This document shows positions 8,315 to 60,440 of a stretch of DNA of 64,000 bases, one piece after another. The stretch spans positions 1-64,000 of IMG/VR virus record IMGVR_UViG_3300028833_000098. One strand, written 5' to 3'. The DNA comes from a virus (lineage: Duplodnaviria > Caudoviricetes). Each line of letters begins with the position of its first letter. Position 1 is the first letter of the stretch. Under the pieces are notes generated by a model. It was not told the origin of the DNA and did no database searches. It saw nothing but the letters and a program-made list of their open reading frames with translations. A program made the position numbers and the translations under genes.

Positions 8315-8406
8315 TTTTTCTATGCTACCGGTTATTATTTTAACTTTCTACATATATATTATTACTATGATAAAAAATAAACCATTTACACCTTCATTAT
8401 TGAAGG
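8315..8406 (+). promoter_or_regulatory. repeated promoter/stem-loop cassette, copy 1
   Basis: TTTTCTATGCTACC..TTCTACATATATATTATTACTATGATAA..ATAAACCATTTA, then hairpin CCTTCA-TTAT-TGAAGG. Confidence 0.8.
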
Positions 8407-18428: not shown

Positions 18429-18522
18429 TTTTCTATGCTACCGATCAGGATTTTAAAGTTCTACATATATATTATTACTATGATAAGAAAATAAACCATT
18501 TATGAATCTCCCACTATGGGAG
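18429..18522 (+). promoter_or_regulatory. repeated promoter/stem-loop cassette, copy 2
   Basis: Same consensus as copy 1; hairpin CTCCCA-CTA-TGGGAG before the RBS. Confidence 0.8.
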
Positions 18523-24703: not shown

Positions 24704-26953
24704 TCAAAATACTTTGTCGTCATTAAACCATTCTATGAATGATTCAGTCAGTACGATATTGTGTTTTGATATAAGATTATTGAGATGCTTATCGAGATCT
24801 TCTGCTTCTTCAGGAGAGAATGTTGTTGAGTTGTATATAGTACTGATATTTGTCTTATGAATATCTGAGAAGTTATCAACGATCCATTTGCAATACTTCT
24901 TTATTTCCGGATCAAGATCCTTCTGTGCAAGAAGAGTCTTCGCTGCACGTACAGAAGCATGACATCTTTCGAGTGGTGTTGGATAAGATGAAAATACATT
25001 CTTATGGAGTTCCATTTCAAGTTTAGCAAGCTCATTAAGCTTCTCTGTTTTGAACTCATTTGGAGTGTACTTTTCCTTACTGCTACCAACGAAGAATGTT
25101 ATAGGAAGCTGATACATTGAAGCAAAGAGATCACAGTAATATTCTTCATAGAGTTTTGCAGAAGAATAGGTTGATATTGCATCAATGTATGCGAGAGATA
25201 ATGTCATTGTTCCCAATAATCCAGCAATACCAGCACCGCCTACTATTACAGGCAGTGCAGCACCTTCTGTCATAATCGTACCAACGATACCAGCAGCTGC
25301 AATAAGTGACCAGGTGATATACCGTGCAGGACCCGGCTTTGAAGTGTTCTTTACAGACTTCTTATATCTCTTTATAAGAGAATCTATATATGCATCAGCA
25401 TTCTCAGTTCTCTTTGCATTAGCAGCAAGTTTCTTTGCTGCACTTTCCTTTTCTTCAACCATCGACAATGCAACGAGCTGCTTAACCATCTTCTTCTTTG
25501 CAATCTTATCTATAAGCTTGCTATTTGAAACAGCATCAATTGAATCAACATAATTCTGCATGATGATTCTCTTTTTCTTAACATCGTCTGTTGAACCAGC
25601 CGCATTAAGTGCTGTTACGAGAGACATAGCCATCTTTGCACTTTCCTCACGTAATACAAGAGAAATGTTATGGAATATCTCATGAAGGAATATCGATACC
25701 ATTGTCTGTCCGAACAGCTTCGAATTAGAGTTATTAGACTCGAAGAATCTGTTGAATACATATATCGATATTGGCTGACCATTAAGCTGGAAACCTTTTG
25801 ATTTTGATATAGTGAGATTTCTCTTTATATCACGATGGAGACGTGTTGCAACGTTCTCGTATCCAGACTTATCTGCAAAGAAACGAATGTTGATATTACA
25901 GTCGAACTGTTTATTCAAACACTCAACACCCTTCTTGAATGATGGGTTATTCAAGAATTTCTTTGTGTCAAGTTTTTCTGCGTCAGCATCCTGTTCAGAA
26001 CGAGCGTCATTGAAGAACTTGATTGCTTTAACAATATTTGAATTATCAAACCTCATGTATTTGATGTCTTCTTTTGTTATAACCTTCTTTTTCTTGGGGT
26101 TTTTCTTTGTGTCAGTTGCAGATTCAACATATACTGAATCAATGGGCTTAACAAAGTCAAAACCATGTTTCTGAAGAAGATCATAACCGAGATGTGTTGT
26201 ATCACCCATCTTAGCTATCATATTTACATGATATGCAGATTCCTGTATTTCATCAGGAATACTTGTTGCCTGAACATTAACTTGATCAGCAGCTTCATCG
26301 GCAGATGCATTCATATCAACATTTGCAGATATGTCTGAATCTTCATCATTGAAATAATCATCGCCAGGTCTTTTTGCACTTGCTGAAGGATCAAATGTTG
26401 GTATTGTGTTGGATGCTCTCAGTTCAGCAACCTTTGCTACGGCAGCGGGTGTATTGGGCATATCAACTGCACCTGAATCATATGCATGAATTTCTCCACC
26501 CTCATCATCATTATAAATACCAATGCATTTACCCTTTGGGCCATTTGATAACATTGATATCTTATCGGCCATCTGACCATTCGCAATGTTTCTTGCCTGA
26601 TAGTCATTGATCTTATCATCTATTCTCTGAGAGATATAATCAAGAACACTTCCTATCGCCTGCATGATAACCTTTGTCTGGCCAGCAGGATTAGCAACAG
26701 GAGGAGCTATGATGGTGTCGTCTTCAACTCTAACCGATGTTGCAGCATCATCAGAAATGATATTCGTTGCAGGTATACCATACATTGCTCCAACTGCTTC
26801 AAGTGCAGCTACAAGATCGGGAGCTTCGGAAACAAGCTTATTGACTTTTTCCTGTACAGAATTTACTACCTGTTTACTTTCAGCCAATGTACTGCTCGTA
26901 TTTGTATTGATATTACTCATTGGAGTAATTGTTTCCTGAATAGGTTTAAGCAT
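24704..26953 (-). CDS. virion-associated M48/HtpX-like membrane zinc metalloprotease, paralog 1
   Basis: FLHEIFHN, TM hairpin, EEYYCDLFA, YPTPLER; RBS GGGAGG before the ATG at 26953. Confidence 0.65.
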   Translation of the reverse strand: MLKPIQETITPMSNINTNTSSTLAESKQVVNSVQEKVNKLVSEAPDLVAALEAVGAMYGIPATNIISDDAATSVRVEDDTIIAPPVANPAGQTKVIMQAIGSVLDYISQRIDDKINDYQARNIANGQMADKISMLSNGPKGKCIGIYNDDEGGEIHAYDSGAVDMPNTPAAVAKVAELRASNTIPTFDPSASAKRPGDDYFNDEDSDISANVDMNASADEAADQVNVQATSIPDEIQESAYHVNMIAKMGDTTHLGYDLLQKHGFDFVKPIDSVYVESATDTKKNPKKKKVITKEDIKYMRFDNSNIVKAIKFFNDARSEQDADAEKLDTKKFLNNPSFKKGVECLNKQFDCNINIRFFADKSGYENVATRLHRDIKRNLTISKSKGFQLNGQPISIYVFNRFFESNNSNSKLFGQTMVSIFLHEIFHNISLVLREESAKMAMSLVTALNAAGSTDDVKKKRIIMQNYVDSIDAVSNSKLIDKIAKKKMVKQLVALSMVEEKESAAKKLAANAKRTENADAYIDSLIKRYKKSVKNTSKPGPARYITWSLIAAAGIVGTIMTEGAALPVIVGGAGIAGLLGTMTLSLAYIDAISTYSSAKLYEEYYCDLFASMYQLPITFFVGSSKEKYTPNEFKTEKLNELAKLEMELHKNVFSSYPTPLERCHASVRAAKTLLAQKDLDPEIKKYCKWIVDNFSDIHKTNISTIYNSTTFSPEEAEDLDKHLNNLISKHNIVLTESFIEWFNDDKVF

Positions 26954-29363
26954 TATTATTACCTCCCTCTGTATTTGTTGTTGTCGCAGCCGAAGAACTC
27001 TGCTGATTTTTGTAATTCTGTATAATTGTTGTATACAGAGCCCATCTTTCCTTGACAATGGGATTAAGGATGTATGTTGTTATTGTACGAGCAAGATCGG
27101 TGAAAGCTTTCTGATATGCTTTTGACAATGTGTCAAGCTTTTTCTTAACACCTTCTGCAAGGTTCTGCTCATTCAACTTTGCATCTATCTTAGTTTTGAT
27201 AGCATCGTTCTTTTTGGCAAATGCCGCAACGGTTTTGTCGATTGCATCGGCAGAACTGAGAACGTCGGAATAGCAATCTTCCCATAGCTGAGGTGTCATA
27301 TCACCAACAGTGGTCTGCTGTGATTCATCAGTTGTATCAAAGAAGTAATACTTGATAACTCTGTCTGTTATATCCTTCCAGTTTGTCTTATCTGCACCAC
27401 CACTATTTTCAGATGTGATGATATTATCGGTATTATCAATACCAAGCATAAGAAGAACCAGTTTTTCGAATGAAGTATTCTGATCACCATTATCAGCGAG
27501 ATAGTTTTCTACTACATTATCATTTGCCTTTTCAAACTTCGGTACAGAGATCTTCCAGTTCTTGTAATCCTTCAGATAAGGTCTGAAATCTCTACCGATT
27601 TTAGAACCAATCTCTTTATTGAGAGAATCATTCTTCTTTATGTATTCAATATACTTATTGAGTTTCTCACGAGACTCTTTACCGAAGTTACTGAATATCT
27701 TCTTGAACCATTCAGCAATCTTTGCCATCAGCTTCTTGATTCCATCAGTATTTGTTGGTTTGATTTCATTGCCGTTACCATCCTTGAATGTGACGCCTTT
27801 ATATCCGCTTTCTTCAGCCTTTGATCCCTGAGAGGAACCTGTCTGATCAGTTGTAGGTGCATCAGCTTCCATGATGTAACCCTCACCAATGAATCCAGGA
27901 GCAGCAGCATTAGGCATATCATCAGTGCACTTGATGACCTGGGTGTTGTTGTAATACAACCTGAGCATGTTTCTTGTAAGAATCTCACCGAGAAGAACAA
28001 GAACATCCTTTGTGAGTTCATAGTTTTCTATAGGTGCACCATCACTATATGCATGAATTATGCCCTTGATTGCTCCAGCGATGCTAATGATGTTTTCAGC
28101 AAGCTCGTCATTACTCTTGAGCTCTACACCACCATACATTTTGTAGATCATATCGAGAGAGTTAGTGATGGGATGAACATGATTGTTTCCAACTGCATCA
28201 CGACGATAGTTTCCATCAAGATAGTTATTACCGAAAGCTATTGTATCAAGCCAATCCACTTTTGTCTGGAATCCAGCAACGTCTTTAAGAGGATCAACAT
28301 ATTCACTTTCGCCATCTTTCTTGAACACATCAGCAAGACAACGCTCATTACATCTATTGATACCGAGGAACATTCTGGCGATTGCATCACCACCATGGAA
28401 ATTTCTACCGGCATCCTTTGGCGCATATTTGTTAACAAGTATTGCGATAGGTGATCTACCATCCTTCATGATGAAATGTAACGCATCATGTGTATCCTTG
28501 AAGTTAGGCGTAACATCCTGAAGAACTACATCTCTCATGTTACAATTGAAAGGAATTCTGTTTCTGATCATGTAGTCATTTGACTTACACATGCAGCATT
28601 CAGTCACAACGTTCTCTTTATCAGAATTCTCATCCTTGACTTTCTTGAAAGTATAGTCTGTTGCCGGATTACAATAAGCATACATCTGTAATACTGTGCA
28701 TGTATTTACAGTAGCTGCAAAGAGTAAGAAATCCTGAACGGTAGTAGTGATAGCCTTCATGATACCTTGAGAATATACACATGCGTCATTCAATATCTTA
28801 GGAAGTGCATCAACAAGCTTCTTTGCATTAGCAGCAAAGTGCATGTCATTCATCTTCTTGATATCTTCAGAAGCAAGTTTGATTCTCTGTACCATTTCTC
28901 CCTTACTGTAGACTGATACAGGACCATAGTCGTTTGCACATACCATCTCAAGATCCTGAAGGGTTTGTGCACGAGGATCTACATGATCATGAGAATCATC
29001 TATGGTAGCATCATCATCTATGGGTGCACTACCATTATCCTCAAAGCATTTCTTAACTGATGCAACGAGGAATGTGTTGAGATCATTCATGTTGTCATGG
29101 AAAAATCCTCCATCAACGGCTCTTACAAGATTATCAACAAATGTTGAAATGTCCTTTGGTGCAATAAATCTTGTGTTGTATGATGTTGCACATACACCAT
29201 AGTCACAATCGATCTTACCAGAACTCATCTTGTTCAATGATTCGAGTGAATCAGAATATGCTTTTACCAATGCATCAAACTTTATTCTGAATGCCTTGGA
29301 AAAATCACATTTCAACTTTGGACTCTCCTCAACAGGAGAAATCTTTTTATTGGATCTATTCAT
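26946..29363 (-). CDS. large putative virion (head) protein
   Basis: 805 aa; internal YIMEA followed by the amphipathic helix GIKKLMAKIAEWFKKIF seen in the paralog family. Confidence 0.55.
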   Translation of the reverse strand: MNRSNKKISPVEESPKLKCDFSKAFRIKFDALVKAYSDSLESLNKMSSGKIDCDYGVCATSYNTRFIAPKDISTFVDNLVRAVDGGFFHDNMNDLNTFLVASVKKCFEDNGSAPIDDDATIDDSHDHVDPRAQTLQDLEMVCANDYGPVSVYSKGEMVQRIKLASEDIKKMNDMHFAANAKKLVDALPKILNDACVYSQGIMKAITTTVQDFLLFAATVNTCTVLQMYAYCNPATDYTFKKVKDENSDKENVVTECCMCKSNDYMIRNRIPFNCNMRDVVLQDVTPNFKDTHDALHFIMKDGRSPIAILVNKYAPKDAGRNFHGGDAIARMFLGINRCNERCLADVFKKDGESEYVDPLKDVAGFQTKVDWLDTIAFGNNYLDGNYRRDAVGNNHVHPITNSLDMIYKMYGGVELKSNDELAENIISIAGAIKGIIHAYSDGAPIENYELTKDVLVLLGEILTRNMLRLYYNNTQVIKCTDDMPNAAAPGFIGEGYIMEADAPTTDQTGSSQGSKAEESGYKGVTFKDGNGNEIKPTNTDGIKKLMAKIAEWFKKIFSNFGKESREKLNKYIEYIKKNDSLNKEIGSKIGRDFRPYLKDYKNWKISVPKFEKANDNVVENYLADNGDQNTSFEKLVLLMLGIDNTDNIITSENSGGADKTNWKDITDRVIKYYFFDTTDESQQTTVGDMTPQLWEDCYSDVLSSADAIDKTVAAFAKKNDAIKTKIDAKLNEQNLAEGVKKKLDTLSKAYQKAFTDLARTITTYILNPIVKERWALYTTIIQNYKNQQSSSAATTTNTEGGNNNA

Positions 29364-29450
29364 ATCAAAGCTCCTTTACATATTTTTTATCCCGGTCTTG
29401 CAGGGAATTATCATTCCGTTTACGAACATTCTATATATTGATAATATTTA

Positions 29451-29473
29451 TTACGGGGGATGATCCCCCGTAA
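29451..29473. other. GC-rich hairpin at a divergent junction
   Basis: TTACGGGGGA-TGA-TCCCCCGTAA. Confidence 0.5.
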
Positions 29474-29495
29474 AATATATATTATTATTTTGAAG
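29471..29495 (+). promoter_or_regulatory. putative early promoter (TATATTAT core)
   Basis: TAAAATATATATTATTATTTTGAAG. Confidence 0.55.
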
Positions 29496-29538
29496 GGAAT
29501 GCCAGGATGAAAACTCTAAATCCAGAAAGGATGATAAA

Positions 29539-29694
29539 ATGAATTCAGAAGTCTTTGAACGGTTTCTCAAATTAGTATCAATTGCAGACAATACTGATCT
29601 GATTGAACCAACGAAGAAAGTTATCAGCAAGGAACTTTCGATCAAATTAAAAGACATTGATAGTCTTGAAACTTATGAACGAGCATATGGTTGA
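29539..29694 (+). CDS. small hypothetical protein (51 aa)
   Basis: Not in the ORF track; MNSEVFERFLKLVSIAD..ERAYG*; RBS AGAAAGGA. Confidence 0.55.
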   Translation: MNSEVFERFLKLVSIADNTDLIEPTKKVISKELSIKLKDIDSLETYERAYG

Positions 29695-29762
29695 TGACCT
29701 TATGTTTATCATCAATAATTCACAATGTTGGCAACCATTTCATCCTGACATTACCTAACATG

Positions 29763-29835
29763 TTTTCTATGCTGCCCCGAAATATATGCTACTGGCTATT
29801 ATTTTGATTTTCTACATATATATTATTACTATGAA
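29763..29835 (+). promoter_or_regulatory. repeated promoter cassette, copy 3
   Basis: TTTTCTATGCTG..TATGCTACTGGCTATTATTTT..TTCTACATATATATTATTACTATGA. Confidence 0.75.
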
Positions 29836-29844
29836 GAAGAAAGA

Positions 29845-30070
29845 AGGTAGACAGTGAAAACTGTCCGGCATATGTAGGTTCATGGGTGTCCTCTTCCACA
29901 CCATGGCTTTTCAGCAGATGCATGTGTCGCATATGAGACGGTGTCCTCAAGATGTTCAGGAGAAGGCCGTCATAATTTAAGTTGATTGAGTAACCTTGGC
30001 AATAGTCGGGGTGAAGATATCAGCTTGACTAAAAATAAAAACAATTTGACACCCGGATGATACACCGGGA
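29845..30070 (+). ncRNA. candidate structured RNA / long structured leader
   Basis: GC-richer non-coding tract with at least 5 helices, a GAAA tetraloop and an AGUA/GAA loop-E motif; family unknown. Confidence 0.55.
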
Positions 30071-30086
30071 GAAAACGGAGGTTATT

Positions 30087-30326
30087 ATGAAAAAGGCATG
30101 GAATAAGGCAATAAATAACTGGGAGAACGCCCGCCGCAAAGAAGCTGACTGGATGCGTCAGCATATGATTCTCGGAATTTTTCTGTTGGGCGGTTTTATC
30201 GTTCTGAAGACAATTCAGATCGAGCTCATTTCTGAAGGCATTGCCAGTAAGCTGACAAAGCACTTCGAAGAAAACGAAGACGCTATTACGTCGTATGACG
30301 AAAAAGAAGACGATGAAACATTTTGA
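30087..30326 (+). CDS. small single-TM protein
   Basis: RBS GGAGG before the ATG at 30087. Confidence 0.6.
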   Translation: MKKAWNKAINNWENARRKEADWMRQHMILGIFLLGGFIVLKTIQIELISEGIASKLTKHFEENEDAITSYDEKEDDETF

Positions 30327-30361
30327 CACCATCATCTTATGATGGAGAAAAGGAGAAAATT

Positions 30362-30832
30362 ATGAGAGTTAATTTAGAAATATTCGACGGCACATCCGAA
30401 GAAATCACATCACTCATTCAGAAGATGAATGAGCTTGGCATGTGCGTGTCCGTAACAAACTATGCCAACTCAGCTGCATCAGTACCTGAGCAGGAAGAGA
30501 AGAAGGTTACTATCAATGATATATGGGAAACCATGCTTGCTGAGATGCCTGGATCATTTGATAAGTATGGCATCGCAAGGTACTGTGCACCTTCAAAGCT
30601 GTCATCGAAGGACAGTGATGAGCTCGATAGGTACATCGAGCTCAGGCTCAAGAATGATTTTGTGGTTCTGAGCATTCCGAATCCCGACAATCTGTATACT
30701 GACATCACATTTATGAGATACACATCAAGGATCCAGACAAGATTCAATGAGAAGTATTTCGGCGAGCTTCTGGATCAGACAGTTGACGATCCGGAGATGA
30801 GAAACTTCATCGAGAAGTATTTCACAAAGTGA
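30362..30832 (+). CDS. hypothetical early protein
   Basis: RBS AAGGAG before the ATG at 30362. Confidence 0.7.
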   Translation: MRVNLEIFDGTSEEITSLIQKMNELGMCVSVTNYANSAASVPEQEEKKVTINDIWETMLAEMPGSFDKYGIARYCAPSKLSSKDSDELDRYIELRLKNDFVVLSIPNPDNLYTDITFMRYTSRIQTRFNEKYFGELLDQTVDDPEMRNFIEKYFTK

Positions 30833-30937: not shown

Positions 30938-31684
30938 TTGCGTAATACAAGATGTCCGTTTTGTCCAAAAATATTTAATGACAAACATAGGTTCTGTAGA
31001 CACATTGCATACAAACACAATGACCAAGTACCCGAAGATTGTGATGATGCTTTAGAATGGGCTTATTCATTATTGGTGGGAAAACCAACAGGTCGTTTAT
31101 GTGTTCAATGTAAAAAGAACCCTGTTCATTTTAACAGAGAGACTCTCAAATACGAGAGATACTGTTCTGATGCATGTAAGGCTGCGTATGCGGATAACTT
31201 TCATAACAAACGAATGGTTGATAAATACGGTAAGCCGCATTTATTGAATGATGCGGATATGCAACGCAAGATGATTTTTAATCATGCACAAGCCAGGGAT
31301 TATTTATGGGATGACCAACACAAATTCAGAATCATCGGATCATATGAAGAAGATTTTCTGAAGCACCTAAAAGATCTTGATTGGTCTCCTAATGATGTCA
31401 TCTGTCCATCACCTCATAATTACTATTACAAATGGGCTGATGGGACAACACATCTCTACATCCCAGATTTCTACATACCATCTTTATCATTGGAAGTAGA
31501 AATCAAAGAGAGTGATAACACACATCCTCGAATGGAACACTCGAGAGAGATTGAACATTTAAAAGATAATCGTCTTGCATATGAGACCAAGAAGACCGGT
31601 ATTCATTACATAAAAATCGTTGATAAAAACTATACTGACTTTGATCAAATATATGTCAAGTCGGATACAAATAAACCTGAATAA
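30938..31684 (+). CDS. zinc-finger + PD-(D/E)xK (TnsA/gp4-like) endonuclease
   Basis: CPFC..HIAYKH; CVQC..YCSDAC; GSYEEDF..YIPDFYIP..EVEIKE. Confidence 0.7.
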   Translation: MRNTRCPFCPKIFNDKHRFCRHIAYKHNDQVPEDCDDALEWAYSLLVGKPTGRLCVQCKKNPVHFNRETLKYERYCSDACKAAYADNFHNKRMVDKYGKPHLLNDADMQRKMIFNHAQARDYLWDDQHKFRIIGSYEEDFLKHLKDLDWSPNDVICPSPHNYYYKWADGTTHLYIPDFYIPSLSLEVEIKESDNTHPRMEHSREIEHLKDNRLAYETKKTGIHYIKIVDKNYTDFDQIYVKSDTNKPE

Positions 31685-60347: not shown

Positions 60348-60440
60348 CTCCATTAAGGAGTTTCGTAAATGGTTTATTTTCTTATCATAGTAATAATATA
60401 TATGTAGAACTTTAGAATCCTGAAGGGTAGCATAGAAAAA
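60348..60440 (-). promoter_or_regulatory. repeated promoter/stem-loop cassette, copy 4
   Basis: Minus strand TTTTCTATGCTACC..TAAAGTTCTACATATATATTATTACTATGATAAGAAAATAAACCATTTA, then CTCC-TTAAT-GGAG. Confidence 0.8.

What the first reader, a model, noticed from the sequence alone, without database searches (positions are those of the whole stretch)
29845..30070. Unannotated ~230-nt structured RNA directly behind an early-type promoter
Seen (folded by hand): hairpin GACAGU-GAAA-ACUGUC (29850-29865, GNRA loop); 10-bp stem GGCAUAUGUA/UGCAUGUGUC (29867-29928) enclosing CAUGG-GUG..CAC-A-CCAUG with loop UCCUCUUC; stem GACGGU/GCCGUC with inner UCCU/AGGA; stem UUAAGUUGAU/AUCAGCUUGA carrying an internal AGUA/GAA loop closed by ACCUUGGC-AAUA-GUCGGGGU; and CCCGG/CCGGG before the next RBS. 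GGUGUCCUC occurs twice. Known: AGUA/GAA is the loop-E/sarcin-ricin module, and many G-U pairs point to selection at the RNA level. UCCUC is complementary to Shine-Dalgarno GAGGA. Inference: an early phage sRNA (anti-RBS regulator, or protein/defence decoy) or a cis-regulatory leader. I could not match it to hammerhead, twister, pistol, tRNA or common riboswitch consensus by eye.
Basis: partly seen in the sequence, partly recalled or inferred. Interest (0 to 1): 0.72.

Follow-up and report, generated by a model that had tools for sequence, protein, structure and literature searches.

The report
Structured early leader RNA, jumbo phage
A 254-base folded, non-coding leader lies between an AR9-type early promoter and the first gene of a small operon in an uncultured rumen jumbo phage. 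It is transcribed, its fold is kept by compensating mutations and it matches no catalogued RNA family; its job is untested, and I think it most likely protects and controls that early message.

Summary
The + strand folds much better than shuffled controls (z -3.7); the other strand does not (z -1.6).

Nine distinct homologous leaders from rumen and gut assemblies keep the fold: 97% of cells are paired against 32-43% when partners are slid, with compensatory changes in P1, P2, P4 and P5. No reading frame is conserved, and Rfam gives nothing.

The promoter matches the experimentally defined AR9 virion-RNA-polymerase early consensus, AAATATATATTAT-N6-G(+1). That places the start at G29833. Metatranscriptome contigs from three studies begin 11-39 nt downstream, skip the promoter and run on into the 79-aa gene. 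The RNA is therefore a 254-nt 5' leader rather than a terminated sRNA, although processing is not excluded.

Sister cassettes and orthologous loci have 55-80 nt leaders, so P1-P4 (about 180 nt) is a clade-specific insertion.

The most widely kept hairpin, P4, carries an invariant GUA/GAA (sarcin-ricin-like) internal loop. It belongs to a hairpin family that related phages use as intrinsic terminators, but here it has no U-tract.

Function is unknown. My best guess is a cis-acting stability and control platform. The scan has noted other structured jumbo-phage leaders in other genomes; none shares sequence with this one.

The parts
29763..29832 (+). Promoter cassette: upstream TTTTCTATGCTGCC element and AR9-type early core ACATATATATTAT (29814-29826) plus a 6-nt spacer
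   Evidence: Motif shared by 7-8 cassettes in the window. It matches the AR9 vRNAP early consensus AAATATATATTAT-N6-G (PMC5312081, text and Table S2).
29833..29849 (+). Predicted +1 (G29833) and single-stranded polypurine 5' tail GAAGAAGAAAGAAGGUA
   Evidence: The start site is inferred from the AR9 consensus. RNA contigs begin at 29844, 29848, 29854 and 29872, and none covers 29737-29843.
29850..29865 (+). P1, 5'-proximal hairpin; variable in sequence and dispensable
   Evidence: Compensatory variants: GACAGU/ACUGUC, GUUAG/CUAAC, GAUGGUUU/AAACCAUC, GGUGG/CCAUC. Absent in L043.
29866..29929 (+). P2: outer stem 29866-76 with 29919-29; inner P2a 29881-29905 with CU-rich loop 29889-96
   Evidence: The outer stem is 100% paired in 9 sequences and changes only through pair-preserving substitutions. 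P2a is invariant.
29930..29936 (+). Linker CAUAUGA, able to pair alternatively with the 3' strand of P2
   Evidence: This alternative hairpin is chosen in the MFE folds of L026 and L027.
29937..29971 (+). P3, hairpin burying an SD-like AGGAG against UCCUC
   Evidence: Predicted in all folds. Nearly invariant, so there is no covariation information.
29977..30028 (+). P4, hairpin with the GUA/GAA (sarcin-ricin-like) internal loop (29988-92 / 30013-15) and a GGCAAUAG apex
   Evidence: Kept in relatives with 72-79% identity in the neighbouring 805-aa protein (L027, L002, L037) and in terminator hairpins of 6 related phage records. It is 94.9% paired against 36-47% when slid, with 7 pairs changed on both sides.
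30029..30051 (+). A-rich single-stranded linker, resembling the AAAAUAAACCAUUUA start of the standard short leaders
   Evidence: Comparison with the cassettes at 8352, 18465 and 60391.
30052..30069 (+). P5, pre-SD hairpin
   Evidence: Two interchangeable forms, CCCGG/CCGGG and CUCCC/GGGAG. Equivalent hairpins occur in the other cassettes.
30077..30326 (+). SD GGAGG (30077-81) and the 79-aa membrane-type ORF (30087-30326), the first gene of the unit
   Evidence: ORF list; homologues P0001 and P0002. The SD is unpaired in the MFE fold.

Best explanation
The region is the 254-nt 5' untranslated leader of an early message of an uncultured rumen jumbo phage. The phage is AR9-like, and its relatives encode multisubunit RNA polymerases. 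Transcription starts at about G29833 from a virion-polymerase-type early promoter and runs through five hairpins (P1-P5) into a 79-aa membrane-protein gene.

Shown: the fold, its conservation, its transcription and its continuity with the gene. Also shown: P1-P4 (about 180 nt) is an insertion into an otherwise standard short cassette leader.

Inferred: the leader acts in cis. The polypurine tail plus the 5' hairpins would shield the 5' end of the message. P4, whose GUA/GAA internal loop and GGCAAUAG apex stay invariant while its stems covary, would be a protein-recognition hairpin. The same hairpin type caps the 3' ends of transcripts as a terminator in related phages. Through P4 the stability, processing or translation of this early message would be set.
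For: Fold: z -3.68 on the + strand against -1.56 on the - strand.

Conservation: in 9 distinct leaders, 96.8% of cells are paired against 32-43% when slid. Six pairs change on both sides, and the stems of P2 and P4 vary only by pair-preserving changes.

Not coding: every frame has at least 4 stops, the 32-aa ORF is frameshifted in L026 and L027, and there is no synonymous bias.

Promoter: it equals the AR9 early consensus (PMC5312081), with 7 perfect copies against 0.17 expected. Relatives carry RNAP beta-like ORFs, and the nearest cultured DNA polymerase is that of AR9/PBS1.

Transcription: RNA contigs from 4 runs in 3 studies start at 29844-29872, leave 29737-29843 uncovered and continue to 30104-30132 inside the CDS. 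There is no U-tract after P4, and the SD is open in the MFE fold.

Insertion: sister cassettes and orthologous loci have 55-80 nt leaders.

Constraint: against L027 the leader is 86% (paired) and 70% (unpaired) identical, while the downstream CDS is 41% identical.

P4 family: the hairpin recurs with covariation as terminators in G003, G004, G005, G006, G008 and G009.
Against: All homologues come from one narrow clade. P2a and P3 never vary, so their pairing is untested by covariation. The shuffle control is not a probability.

Contigs cannot show strand, exact ends or abundance, so a processed stable RNA is not excluded.

Six or seven other cassettes of the same genome work with short leaders. 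Close relatives (L032, L003) lack the module and L043 lacks P1, so the element is accessory. Generic end-protection does not explain the strong sequence conservation of P2a and P3.

No binding protein was identified. No stability or translation effect has been measured.
Confidence: 0.55

Rival explanations
1. P1-P4 is a functional RNA in its own right: a trans-acting regulator, or a decoy or sponge for a host or phage protein. It would be co-transcribed with the early message and released by cleavage in the A-rich linker (30029-30051), leaving P5 as the new 5' hairpin of the mRNA.
For: The module is a discrete insertion into a standard leader. P2a, P3 and the loops of P4 are conserved at the sequence level beyond what the structure needs. 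It has a patchy, accessory distribution among close relatives. P4 is homologous to hairpins that mark 3' ends elsewhere. The leader is better conserved than the gene it precedes.
Against: There is no terminator. RNA contigs bridge P4 to the CDS in all four runs, with similar contig depth for the leader and downstream pieces (depth is only a weak indicator). No second copy or target was found.
Confidence: 0.2
2. The leader is a factor-dependent attenuator. P4, a terminator-family hairpin without a U-tract, stops or pauses the phage polymerase only when a factor binds its GUA/GAA loop, and so times read-through into the operon.
For: P4 is homologous to genuine terminators of related phages. The 3' strand of P2 has an alternative pairing partner.
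Against: No U-tract is present in any of the P4-bearing leaders examined. Read-through RNA is seen in every run. In L002 and L037, P4 starts within a few tens of nucleotides of the promoter core, too close to the start for an obvious sensing domain.
Confidence: 0.1
3. The module is a neutral relic of cassette shuffling: the tail and terminator of a lost gene, now simply read through.
For: PeSL-like cassettes recombine here. The 51-aa ORF cassette is present or absent among near-identical strains, L043 has a terminator plus promoter in place of P1, and L041 mixes P5 types. P4 resembles terminators.
Against: Variable stem positions are essentially all pair-preserving. The leader is far better conserved than the adjacent CDS against L027. 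Folding energy is well beyond the shuffles.
Confidence: 0.07
4. The leader is a riboswitch or another ligand-sensing RNA.
For: It is a long structured 5' UTR, and there is possible alternative pairing around P2.
Against: No Rfam hit appears even at E<=10. The hairpins are serial, without a conserved multi-helix junction. There is no terminator or SD-sequestering platform, and the SD is open. The downstream gene is a small membrane protein with no metabolic link.
Confidence: 0.03
5. A small protein or leader peptide, or a DNA-level element such as an operator or origin, explains the conservation.
For: A 32-aa ORF lies at 29882-29980 and an 86-aa ORF was called in L027. There are three CATATG/CATGTG palindromes. 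The cumulative GC-skew minimum falls at 28-30 kb.
Against: Frames are broken by stops and by +1/+2 indels, and substitutions are mostly non-synonymous in every frame. G-U pairs and the strand asymmetry of folding point to RNA. The region is present in RNA libraries while its promoter is not.
Confidence: 0.05

Closest known systems
Long 5' UTRs of AR9 early transcripts (Lavysh et al. 2017, PMC5312081)
   Same: Same promoter grammar, AAATATATATTAT-N6-G(+1), read in AR9 by the virion RNA polymerase. AR9 UTRs span 26-491 nt, and a few early ones reach 190-340 nt (Table S2). Their role is stated to be unknown and possibly translational.
   Different: No sequence similarity was found to any GenBank phage. 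For this leader the fold, its covariation and its modular origin are documented here.
PeSL (promoter-early stem-loop) cassettes of T4-type phages RB49/phi1 (Arbiol et al. 2010, PMC2839356)
   Same: Repeated early promoter plus stem-loop terminator units flank small orphan genes and mediate insertion, deletion and replacement between close relatives. The same is seen here: the 51-aa ORF cassette polymorphism and the terminator-plus-promoter swap in L043.
   Different: PeSL promoters are sigma70-type and PeSL stem-loops are simple terminators. Here the promoter is AR9-type. The element of interest is a 180-nt multi-hairpin RNA inside one leader, in single copy.
Sarcin-ricin / loop E (bulged-G) motif, AGUA/GAA or GGUA/GAA (e.g. 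PMC1865062)
   Same: The internal loop of P4 reads AGUA/GAA in the window and GGUA/GAA in L037. GUA and GAA are invariant in the 9 aligned hairpins, and helices that covary lie on both sides.
   Different: The first position also takes U (L002) and C (G003), and an extra conserved purine precedes it. The three-dimensional S-turn geometry is untested. This is a motif resemblance, not homology to rRNA.
Intrinsic terminators of the related phages (G003, G004, G005, G006, G008, G009)
   Same: Same hairpin family as P4: GUAAC ... GGCAAnAGCC ... GnGAA, with covarying stems.
   Different: Those have GC-rich stems, A-tract/U-tract flanks and sit at gene ends. P4 has G-U-rich stems and no U-tract, and it lies in a 5' leader.
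5' stabilisers and RNase III processing hairpins of phage early mRNAs (T7 R1.1-type sites; SP82 and cryIIIA STAB-SD polypurine stabilisers). Cited from my own knowledge, not checked here.
   Same: A polypurine, SD-like 5' tail, a 5'-proximal hairpin, and a stacked helix of about 20-24 bp interrupted by an internal loop, all in an early phage leader.
   Different: No cleavage or stabilisation data exist. RNase III recognition does not explain the invariant apical loop of P4.

Membership tests
Any Rfam 15 family (ribozymes, riboswitches, sRNAs, leaders) | Score at or above the family's gathering threshold | tested here: not met
   There were 0 matches at gathering score in the whole window. The best sub-threshold hits had E 0.56-9.3 and were far below their cut-offs.
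AR9-type vRNAP early promoter | AAATATATATTAT, a 6-nt spacer, then G at +1 | tested here: met
   ACATATATATTAT-TACTAT-G lies at 29814-29833 (12 of 13 positions plus the G). There are 7 perfect copies of AMATATATATTAT-N6-G in the window against 0.17 expected. The consensus comes from PMC5312081.
AR9-type vRNAP early promoter | Early timing and dependence on a virion RNA polymerase | not testable with these tools
   Only indirect evidence is available. Relatives encode RNAP beta-like ORFs, but none was found in the 41%-complete record itself.
5' leader (part of the mRNA) | RNA continuous from the start site into the coding sequence, with no terminator in between | tested here: met
   Contigs 29844-30132, 29848-30104, 29854-30128 and 29872-30121 in 4 RNA runs cross the ATG at 30087. 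There is no hairpin plus U-tract between 29833 and 30087. Contigs cannot prove single molecules.
Stand-alone sRNA | Own terminator or a discrete 3' end | tested here: not met
   P4 is followed by CUAAAAAUAAAAAC, not a U-tract. No contig break occurs at 30028-30055. A 3' end made by processing is not testable here.
Sarcin-ricin / loop E motif | AGUA (or GGUA) opposite GAA, flanked by helices | tested here: met
   The window has AGUA/GAA at 29989-92 / 30013-15. GUA and GAA are invariant in 9 hairpins, and both flanking helices covary.
Sarcin-ricin / loop E motif | S-turn backbone with a bulged-G base triple | not testable with these tools
   This needs a structure or chemical probing.
Intrinsic terminator | GC-rich hairpin immediately followed by a U-tract | tested here: not met
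   Relatives' family members have it. P4 in the window, L002, L037, L026 and L027 does not.
Kink-turn | A 3-nt bulge followed by tandem sheared G-A pairs next to a canonical stem | tested here: not met
   Read by eye: the strand entering the upper stem ends in UA/AA, not GA. No L7Ae-domain protein is found in G000-G004.
Riboswitch | A conserved aptamer junction plus an expression platform that hides the SD or forms a terminator | tested here: not met
   The hairpins are serial, the SD is unpaired in the MFE and consensus folds, and there is no terminator. Ligand binding is untestable here.
Small ORF / leader peptide | An open frame kept among homologues, with synonymous-biased change | tested here: not met
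   There are at least 4 stops per frame. Frameshifting indels occur in L026 and L027. Synonymous to non-synonymous counts are 1-5 against 9-18 in every frame.
PeSL-like mobile regulatory cassette | Repeated early promoter with an adjacent stem-loop terminator, flanking orphan genes, with indel polymorphism at cassette borders | tested here: met
   Terminator 29451-73 lies next to the promoter core at 29473-92. The 51-aa ORF cassette is present in the window, L022 and L023 and absent in L021, L025, L027 and L002. L043 has a terminator plus promoter in place of P1. The promoter type differs from the sigma70 type of PeSLs.

The most novel reading that the evidence does not exclude
The GUA/GAA hairpin (P4 and the terminator hairpins of related phages) is the docking site of an as yet unidentified phage or host RNA-binding protein that marks transcript ends. 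In that case the P1-P4 module is a separate early RNA that is cut from the message. It would act in trans as a sponge for that protein, or through its CU-rich anti-SD-like loop on ribosomes or SD regions. This would be a new class of early jumbo-phage regulatory RNA.
Probability: 0.18. Interest if true: 0.7.

Novelty: new variant of a known kind. Interest (0 to 1): 0.5.

Why it matters
Long 5' UTRs on early transcripts of AR9-like jumbo phages have been reported, but their role is unexplained (PMC5312081). This case gives one a defined secondary structure, evolutionary support and metatranscriptomic evidence of expression. It also gives a clear modular history: about 180 nt inserted into a standard cassette leader.

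The analysis also reveals a recurrent hairpin type with a sarcin-ricin-like internal loop. This phage group uses it both as a terminator and in a leader. That points to a shared RNA-protein recognition step in the handling of phage transcripts.

If the element stabilises or gates early messages, it is a compact and testable model for post-transcriptional control in phages that bring their own RNA polymerase. It could also serve as a portable 5' module for expression in Firmicutes.

The distribution is narrow and the function is unproven, so the immediate impact is moderate.

Tried and rejected
Rfam, at gathering score and at E<=10: nothing usable.

blastn of the region against GenBank phages: no match. 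tblastn of the 805-aa neighbour against the same set: no match.

Related loci through the 156-aa and 79-aa proteins in IMG/VR: none.

Pattern scans for P4 and for P2a in metagenome contigs, genome contigs and viral contigs: only the contig of L002. The first P4 pattern required ATTG and so would have missed the GGTTG variants.

Covariance models: R1 and R2 (P4) find no second P4 in the 110-kb record. R3 (P2-P3) finds nothing in 10 related phage records.

A loose GNGUA...GAAGRU pattern is not enriched over its reversed control.

Small-ORF explanation: rejected.

K-turn reading of P4: rejected on sequence.

A lambda boxB-like reading of P1: rejected, because the loop is not conserved and P1 is absent in L043.

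Duplicated GGUGUCCUC as a functional repeat: rejected, because the second copy is not kept in L026.

L7Ae or L25 domain proteins as partners: none in G000-G004.

RNAP Pfam domains in the window's own record: none, but the record is only 41% complete.

The genome search with 'relatives' is not available for virus records.

RNA contigs of all four runs stop at 30104-30132. I read this as the fragment length of low-coverage libraries anchored at a fixed 5' end, not as a 3' end. The parts without RNA cover are not used as evidence, apart from the promoter gap.

Full report
CONTEXT. The window is the first 64 kb of a 109.7-kb IMG/VR virus record that CheckV rates 41% complete. Identical or near-identical proteins occur on contigs of up to 279-285 kb, so this is a jumbo phage. 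The DNA is found in sheep, cattle and goat gut samples. The finding lies in the 723-bp gap between an 805-aa gene on the minus strand (26946-29363) and plus-strand genes that begin with a 79-aa membrane-type ORF (30087-30326).

The nearest cultured DNA polymerases are those of Bacillus phages AR9 and PBS1, at 25% identity. Five related phage records all carry RNA-polymerase beta-like ORFs, and the complete 231-kb record carries two. The window's own incomplete record shows none.

THE OBSERVATION.
- Plus strand: MFE -75.4 kcal/mol against -58.1 +/- 4.7 for dinucleotide shuffles, z -3.68, with 0 of 200 shuffles as good.
- Opposite strand: z only -1.56. This fits the many G-U pairs and an RNA-level structure.
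- Rfam: nothing at gathering score in the whole window, and only chance-level hits at E<=10.

PROMOTER AND START SITE. AMATATATATTAT-N6-G occurs seven times perfectly in the window against 0.17 expected, each time in front of small genes. This puts +1 at G29833, so the leader is 254 nt long.

Metatranscriptome contigs from four runs in three studies begin at 29844, 29848, 29854 and 29872. None covers 29737-29843. The upstream cassette behaves the same way: its predicted +1 is G29492, and its contigs start at 29500 or 29501. The contigs continue to 30104-30132, that is 17-45 nt into the coding sequence.

So the RNA is made, starts at this promoter and is continuous with the message. Contigs cannot give strand, exact ends or abundance.

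HOMOLOGUES AND STRUCTURE. No GenBank phage matches at the DNA level. I reached nine distinct versions of the leader through the neighbouring proteins:
- strain variants: L021, L025, L041, L044;
- more distant forms: L026, L027, L042, L043.

RNAalifold returns the same five hairpins. On the six-row alignment (five distinct sequences), 96.8% of cells form standard pairs against 32-43% when partners are slid by 1-3 columns. Six pairs change on both sides.

The hairpins behave as follows.
- P1 changes its sequence completely but stays a hairpin: GACAGU/ACUGUC, GUUAG/CUAAC, GAUGGUUU/AAACCAUC, GGUGG/CCAUC. It is missing in L043, where a terminator plus a promoter core abuts P2. P1 is therefore dispensable.
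- The outer stem of P2 and both stems of P4 vary only through pair-preserving substitutions.
- P5 exists in two interchangeable forms.
- P2a and P3 never vary. This shows constraint, or recent common descent, but says nothing about their pairing.

Against L027 the leader is 86% (paired) and 70% (unpaired) identical, while the downstream coding sequence is only 41% identical.

NOT CODING. All three frames carry at least four stops in the window. The 32-aa ORF at 29882-29980 is frameshifted by +1 in L026 and by +2 in L027. In every frame non-synonymous differences far outnumber synonymous ones. The 86-aa ORF called in L027 is an artefact of that lineage's indels.

MODULAR ORIGIN. The other cassettes of this genome (8352+, 18465+, 60391-) have leaders of 55-80 nt, and so do the orthologous loci of relatives (L032, whose 805-aa protein is 74% identical, and L003 at 60%). 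Those leaders consist of CTATGATAAGAAAATAAACCATTTA, a small hairpin and the SD.

In the window, about 180 nt (P1-P4) sit between CTATGAAGAAGAAAGAAGG and an A-rich stretch that resembles the standard leader, followed by P5 and the SD. Relatives whose 805-aa protein is 72-74% identical (L002, L037) have only P4, close behind the promoter. The system as a whole resembles the PeSL cassettes of T4-type phages (PMC2839356):
- a terminator lies next to a promoter (29451-29492);
- a 51-aa ORF cassette is present in some near-identical strains and absent in others;
- parts are mixed between lineages (L041, L043).

P4. Across lineages the upper stem of P4 covaries: 96% paired against about 40% when slid. 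Meanwhile AUUG-N-GUA-R-C, GCAAUAG and G-N-GAAG-R-U stay fixed.

A covariance model of P4 found no second copy in this genome. It did find clear relatives in six related phage records (G003, G004, G005, G006, G008, G009). There the hairpin has a GC-rich stem, follows a stop codon and is followed by a U-tract, so it is an intrinsic terminator.

On nine aligned hairpins, the 8-bp upper helix and a 3-bp helix (29985-87 with 30016-18) are 94.9% paired against 36-47% when slid. Seven pairs change on both sides. This leaves an asymmetric internal loop, 5'-(G/A)NGUA-3' over 5'-GAA-3'. The window reads AGUA/GAA and L037 reads GGUA/GAA. Both are accepted sarcin-ricin sequences (PMC1865062). L002 (UGUA) and G003 (CGUA) are not on that list. 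The S-turn geometry itself is untested.

P4 in the leader has no U-tract, and RNA reads through it.

MECHANISM. Shown: a transcribed, conserved, non-coding, five-hairpin leader with an open SD.

Inferred: it acts in cis on the early message. The 17-nt polypurine, SD-like tail and the 5'-proximal hairpins fit the 5'-stabiliser logic known from Firmicute and phage mRNAs; this rests on my own knowledge and was not tested here. The P4 type of hairpin sits at transcript ends in both contexts, 5' in L002 and L037 and 3' in the terminators. Invariant loops with covarying stems are the usual signature of a protein-recognition site.

I put 0.55 on this cis stability/control reading. The rivals are:
- a processed trans-acting or decoy RNA, 0.2;
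- a factor-dependent attenuator, 0.1;
- a neutral relic of cassette shuffling, 0.07;
- a riboswitch, 0.03;
- a peptide or DNA-level element, 0.05.

The CU-rich P2a loop can pair about 5 bp with the SD in all variants (-6.4 to -10.2 kcal/mol). This is suggestive but not diagnostic.

NOVELTY. Long early 5' UTRs are on record for AR9 without explanation: 26-491 nt over all transcripts, and among those from early promoters 200, 214 and 340 nt are listed. PhiKZ leaders are mostly 31-40 nt (PMC8244752).

This scan has already described other structured leaders on jumbo-phage early cassettes in other genomes. None shares sequence with this one. Unlike most of those, this one is single-copy, and it contains a hairpin from a terminator family. 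I therefore class it as a new variant of a known kind, of moderate interest.

Noticed in passing
window 29446-29790: A self-contained cassette is present in the window, L022 and L023. It is absent, with clean borders, in L021, L025, L027, L028 and L002. It comprises terminator 29451-73, a perfect AR9-type early promoter at 29473-92 and a 51-aa ORF at 29539-29694. RNA contigs cover 29500-29735.
   Followed up: partly
window 29364-29445 (upstream of the 805-aa gene, minus strand): About 80 nt directly upstream of the 805-aa gene are 78-86% identical in phages whose 805-aa proteins are only 41-60% identical (L003-L011). The stretch includes the small palindrome GGAAU-UAUC-AUUCC. It is probably a strongly conserved promoter or leader of this gene, which may be a late or virion gene.
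   Followed up: no
L045 1501-1552; L054 1501-1552 (-); L055 1498-1549 (-); L059/L060; L061: Related jumbo phages use intrinsic terminators whose stem is interrupted by the same GUA/GAA asymmetric internal loop and capped by GGCAAnAGCC. Conserved non-Watson-Crick loops are unusual in terminators and suggest a protein partner.
   Followed up: partly
window 8365-8390, 18478-18503, 60366-60390 (-), 30033-30050: The element (A)AAATAAACCATTTA follows the early promoter in the standard cassettes. A related A-rich stretch follows P4. In L002 a similar ATAAACCAAAACAATG element also follows an internal terminator in front of the next gene. It could be a second, non-early promoter or a translation or processing signal.
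   Followed up: no
window 28000-30000: Cumulative GC skew reaches its minimum here, exactly where gene orientation switches from minus to plus. The divergent gap could also hold a replication origin.
   Followed up: no
window 29868-29875, 29919-29926, 29930-29936: There are three copies of a palindromic GCAUAUG/GCAUGUG heptamer. The middle one can pair with either neighbour, giving P2 or a short alternative hairpin. L026 and L027 prefer the alternative in their MFE folds. This may be a switch, or simply a by-product of the palindrome.
   Followed up: partly
window 30104-30142: RNA contigs of all four runs end at 30104-30132 and resume at 30138-30484. This is most simply explained by the fragment length of low-coverage libraries anchored at a fixed 5' end. 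A processing site inside the first 15 codons is not excluded.
   Followed up: no
L049, L053 (G001), L048, L050-L052: Relatives of this phage encode RNA-polymerase beta-like proteins of about 750-770 aa. The complete 231-kb genome also has a second match inside a 1429-aa ORF, which scores below the Pfam cut-off. This fits the two-polymerase (virion and non-virion) strategy of AR9/phiKZ-like phages.
   Followed up: partly
window 30938-31684: The 248-aa protein downstream of the unit matches PHROG 15137 (endonuclease) and has a faint DUF7487 match. It has an N-terminal zinc-finger-like CxxC...HxxxH motif. It is conserved next to this locus in the window's strain variants and in L027, L037, L041, L042 and L043, and may be a homing-type nuclease.
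   Followed up: no
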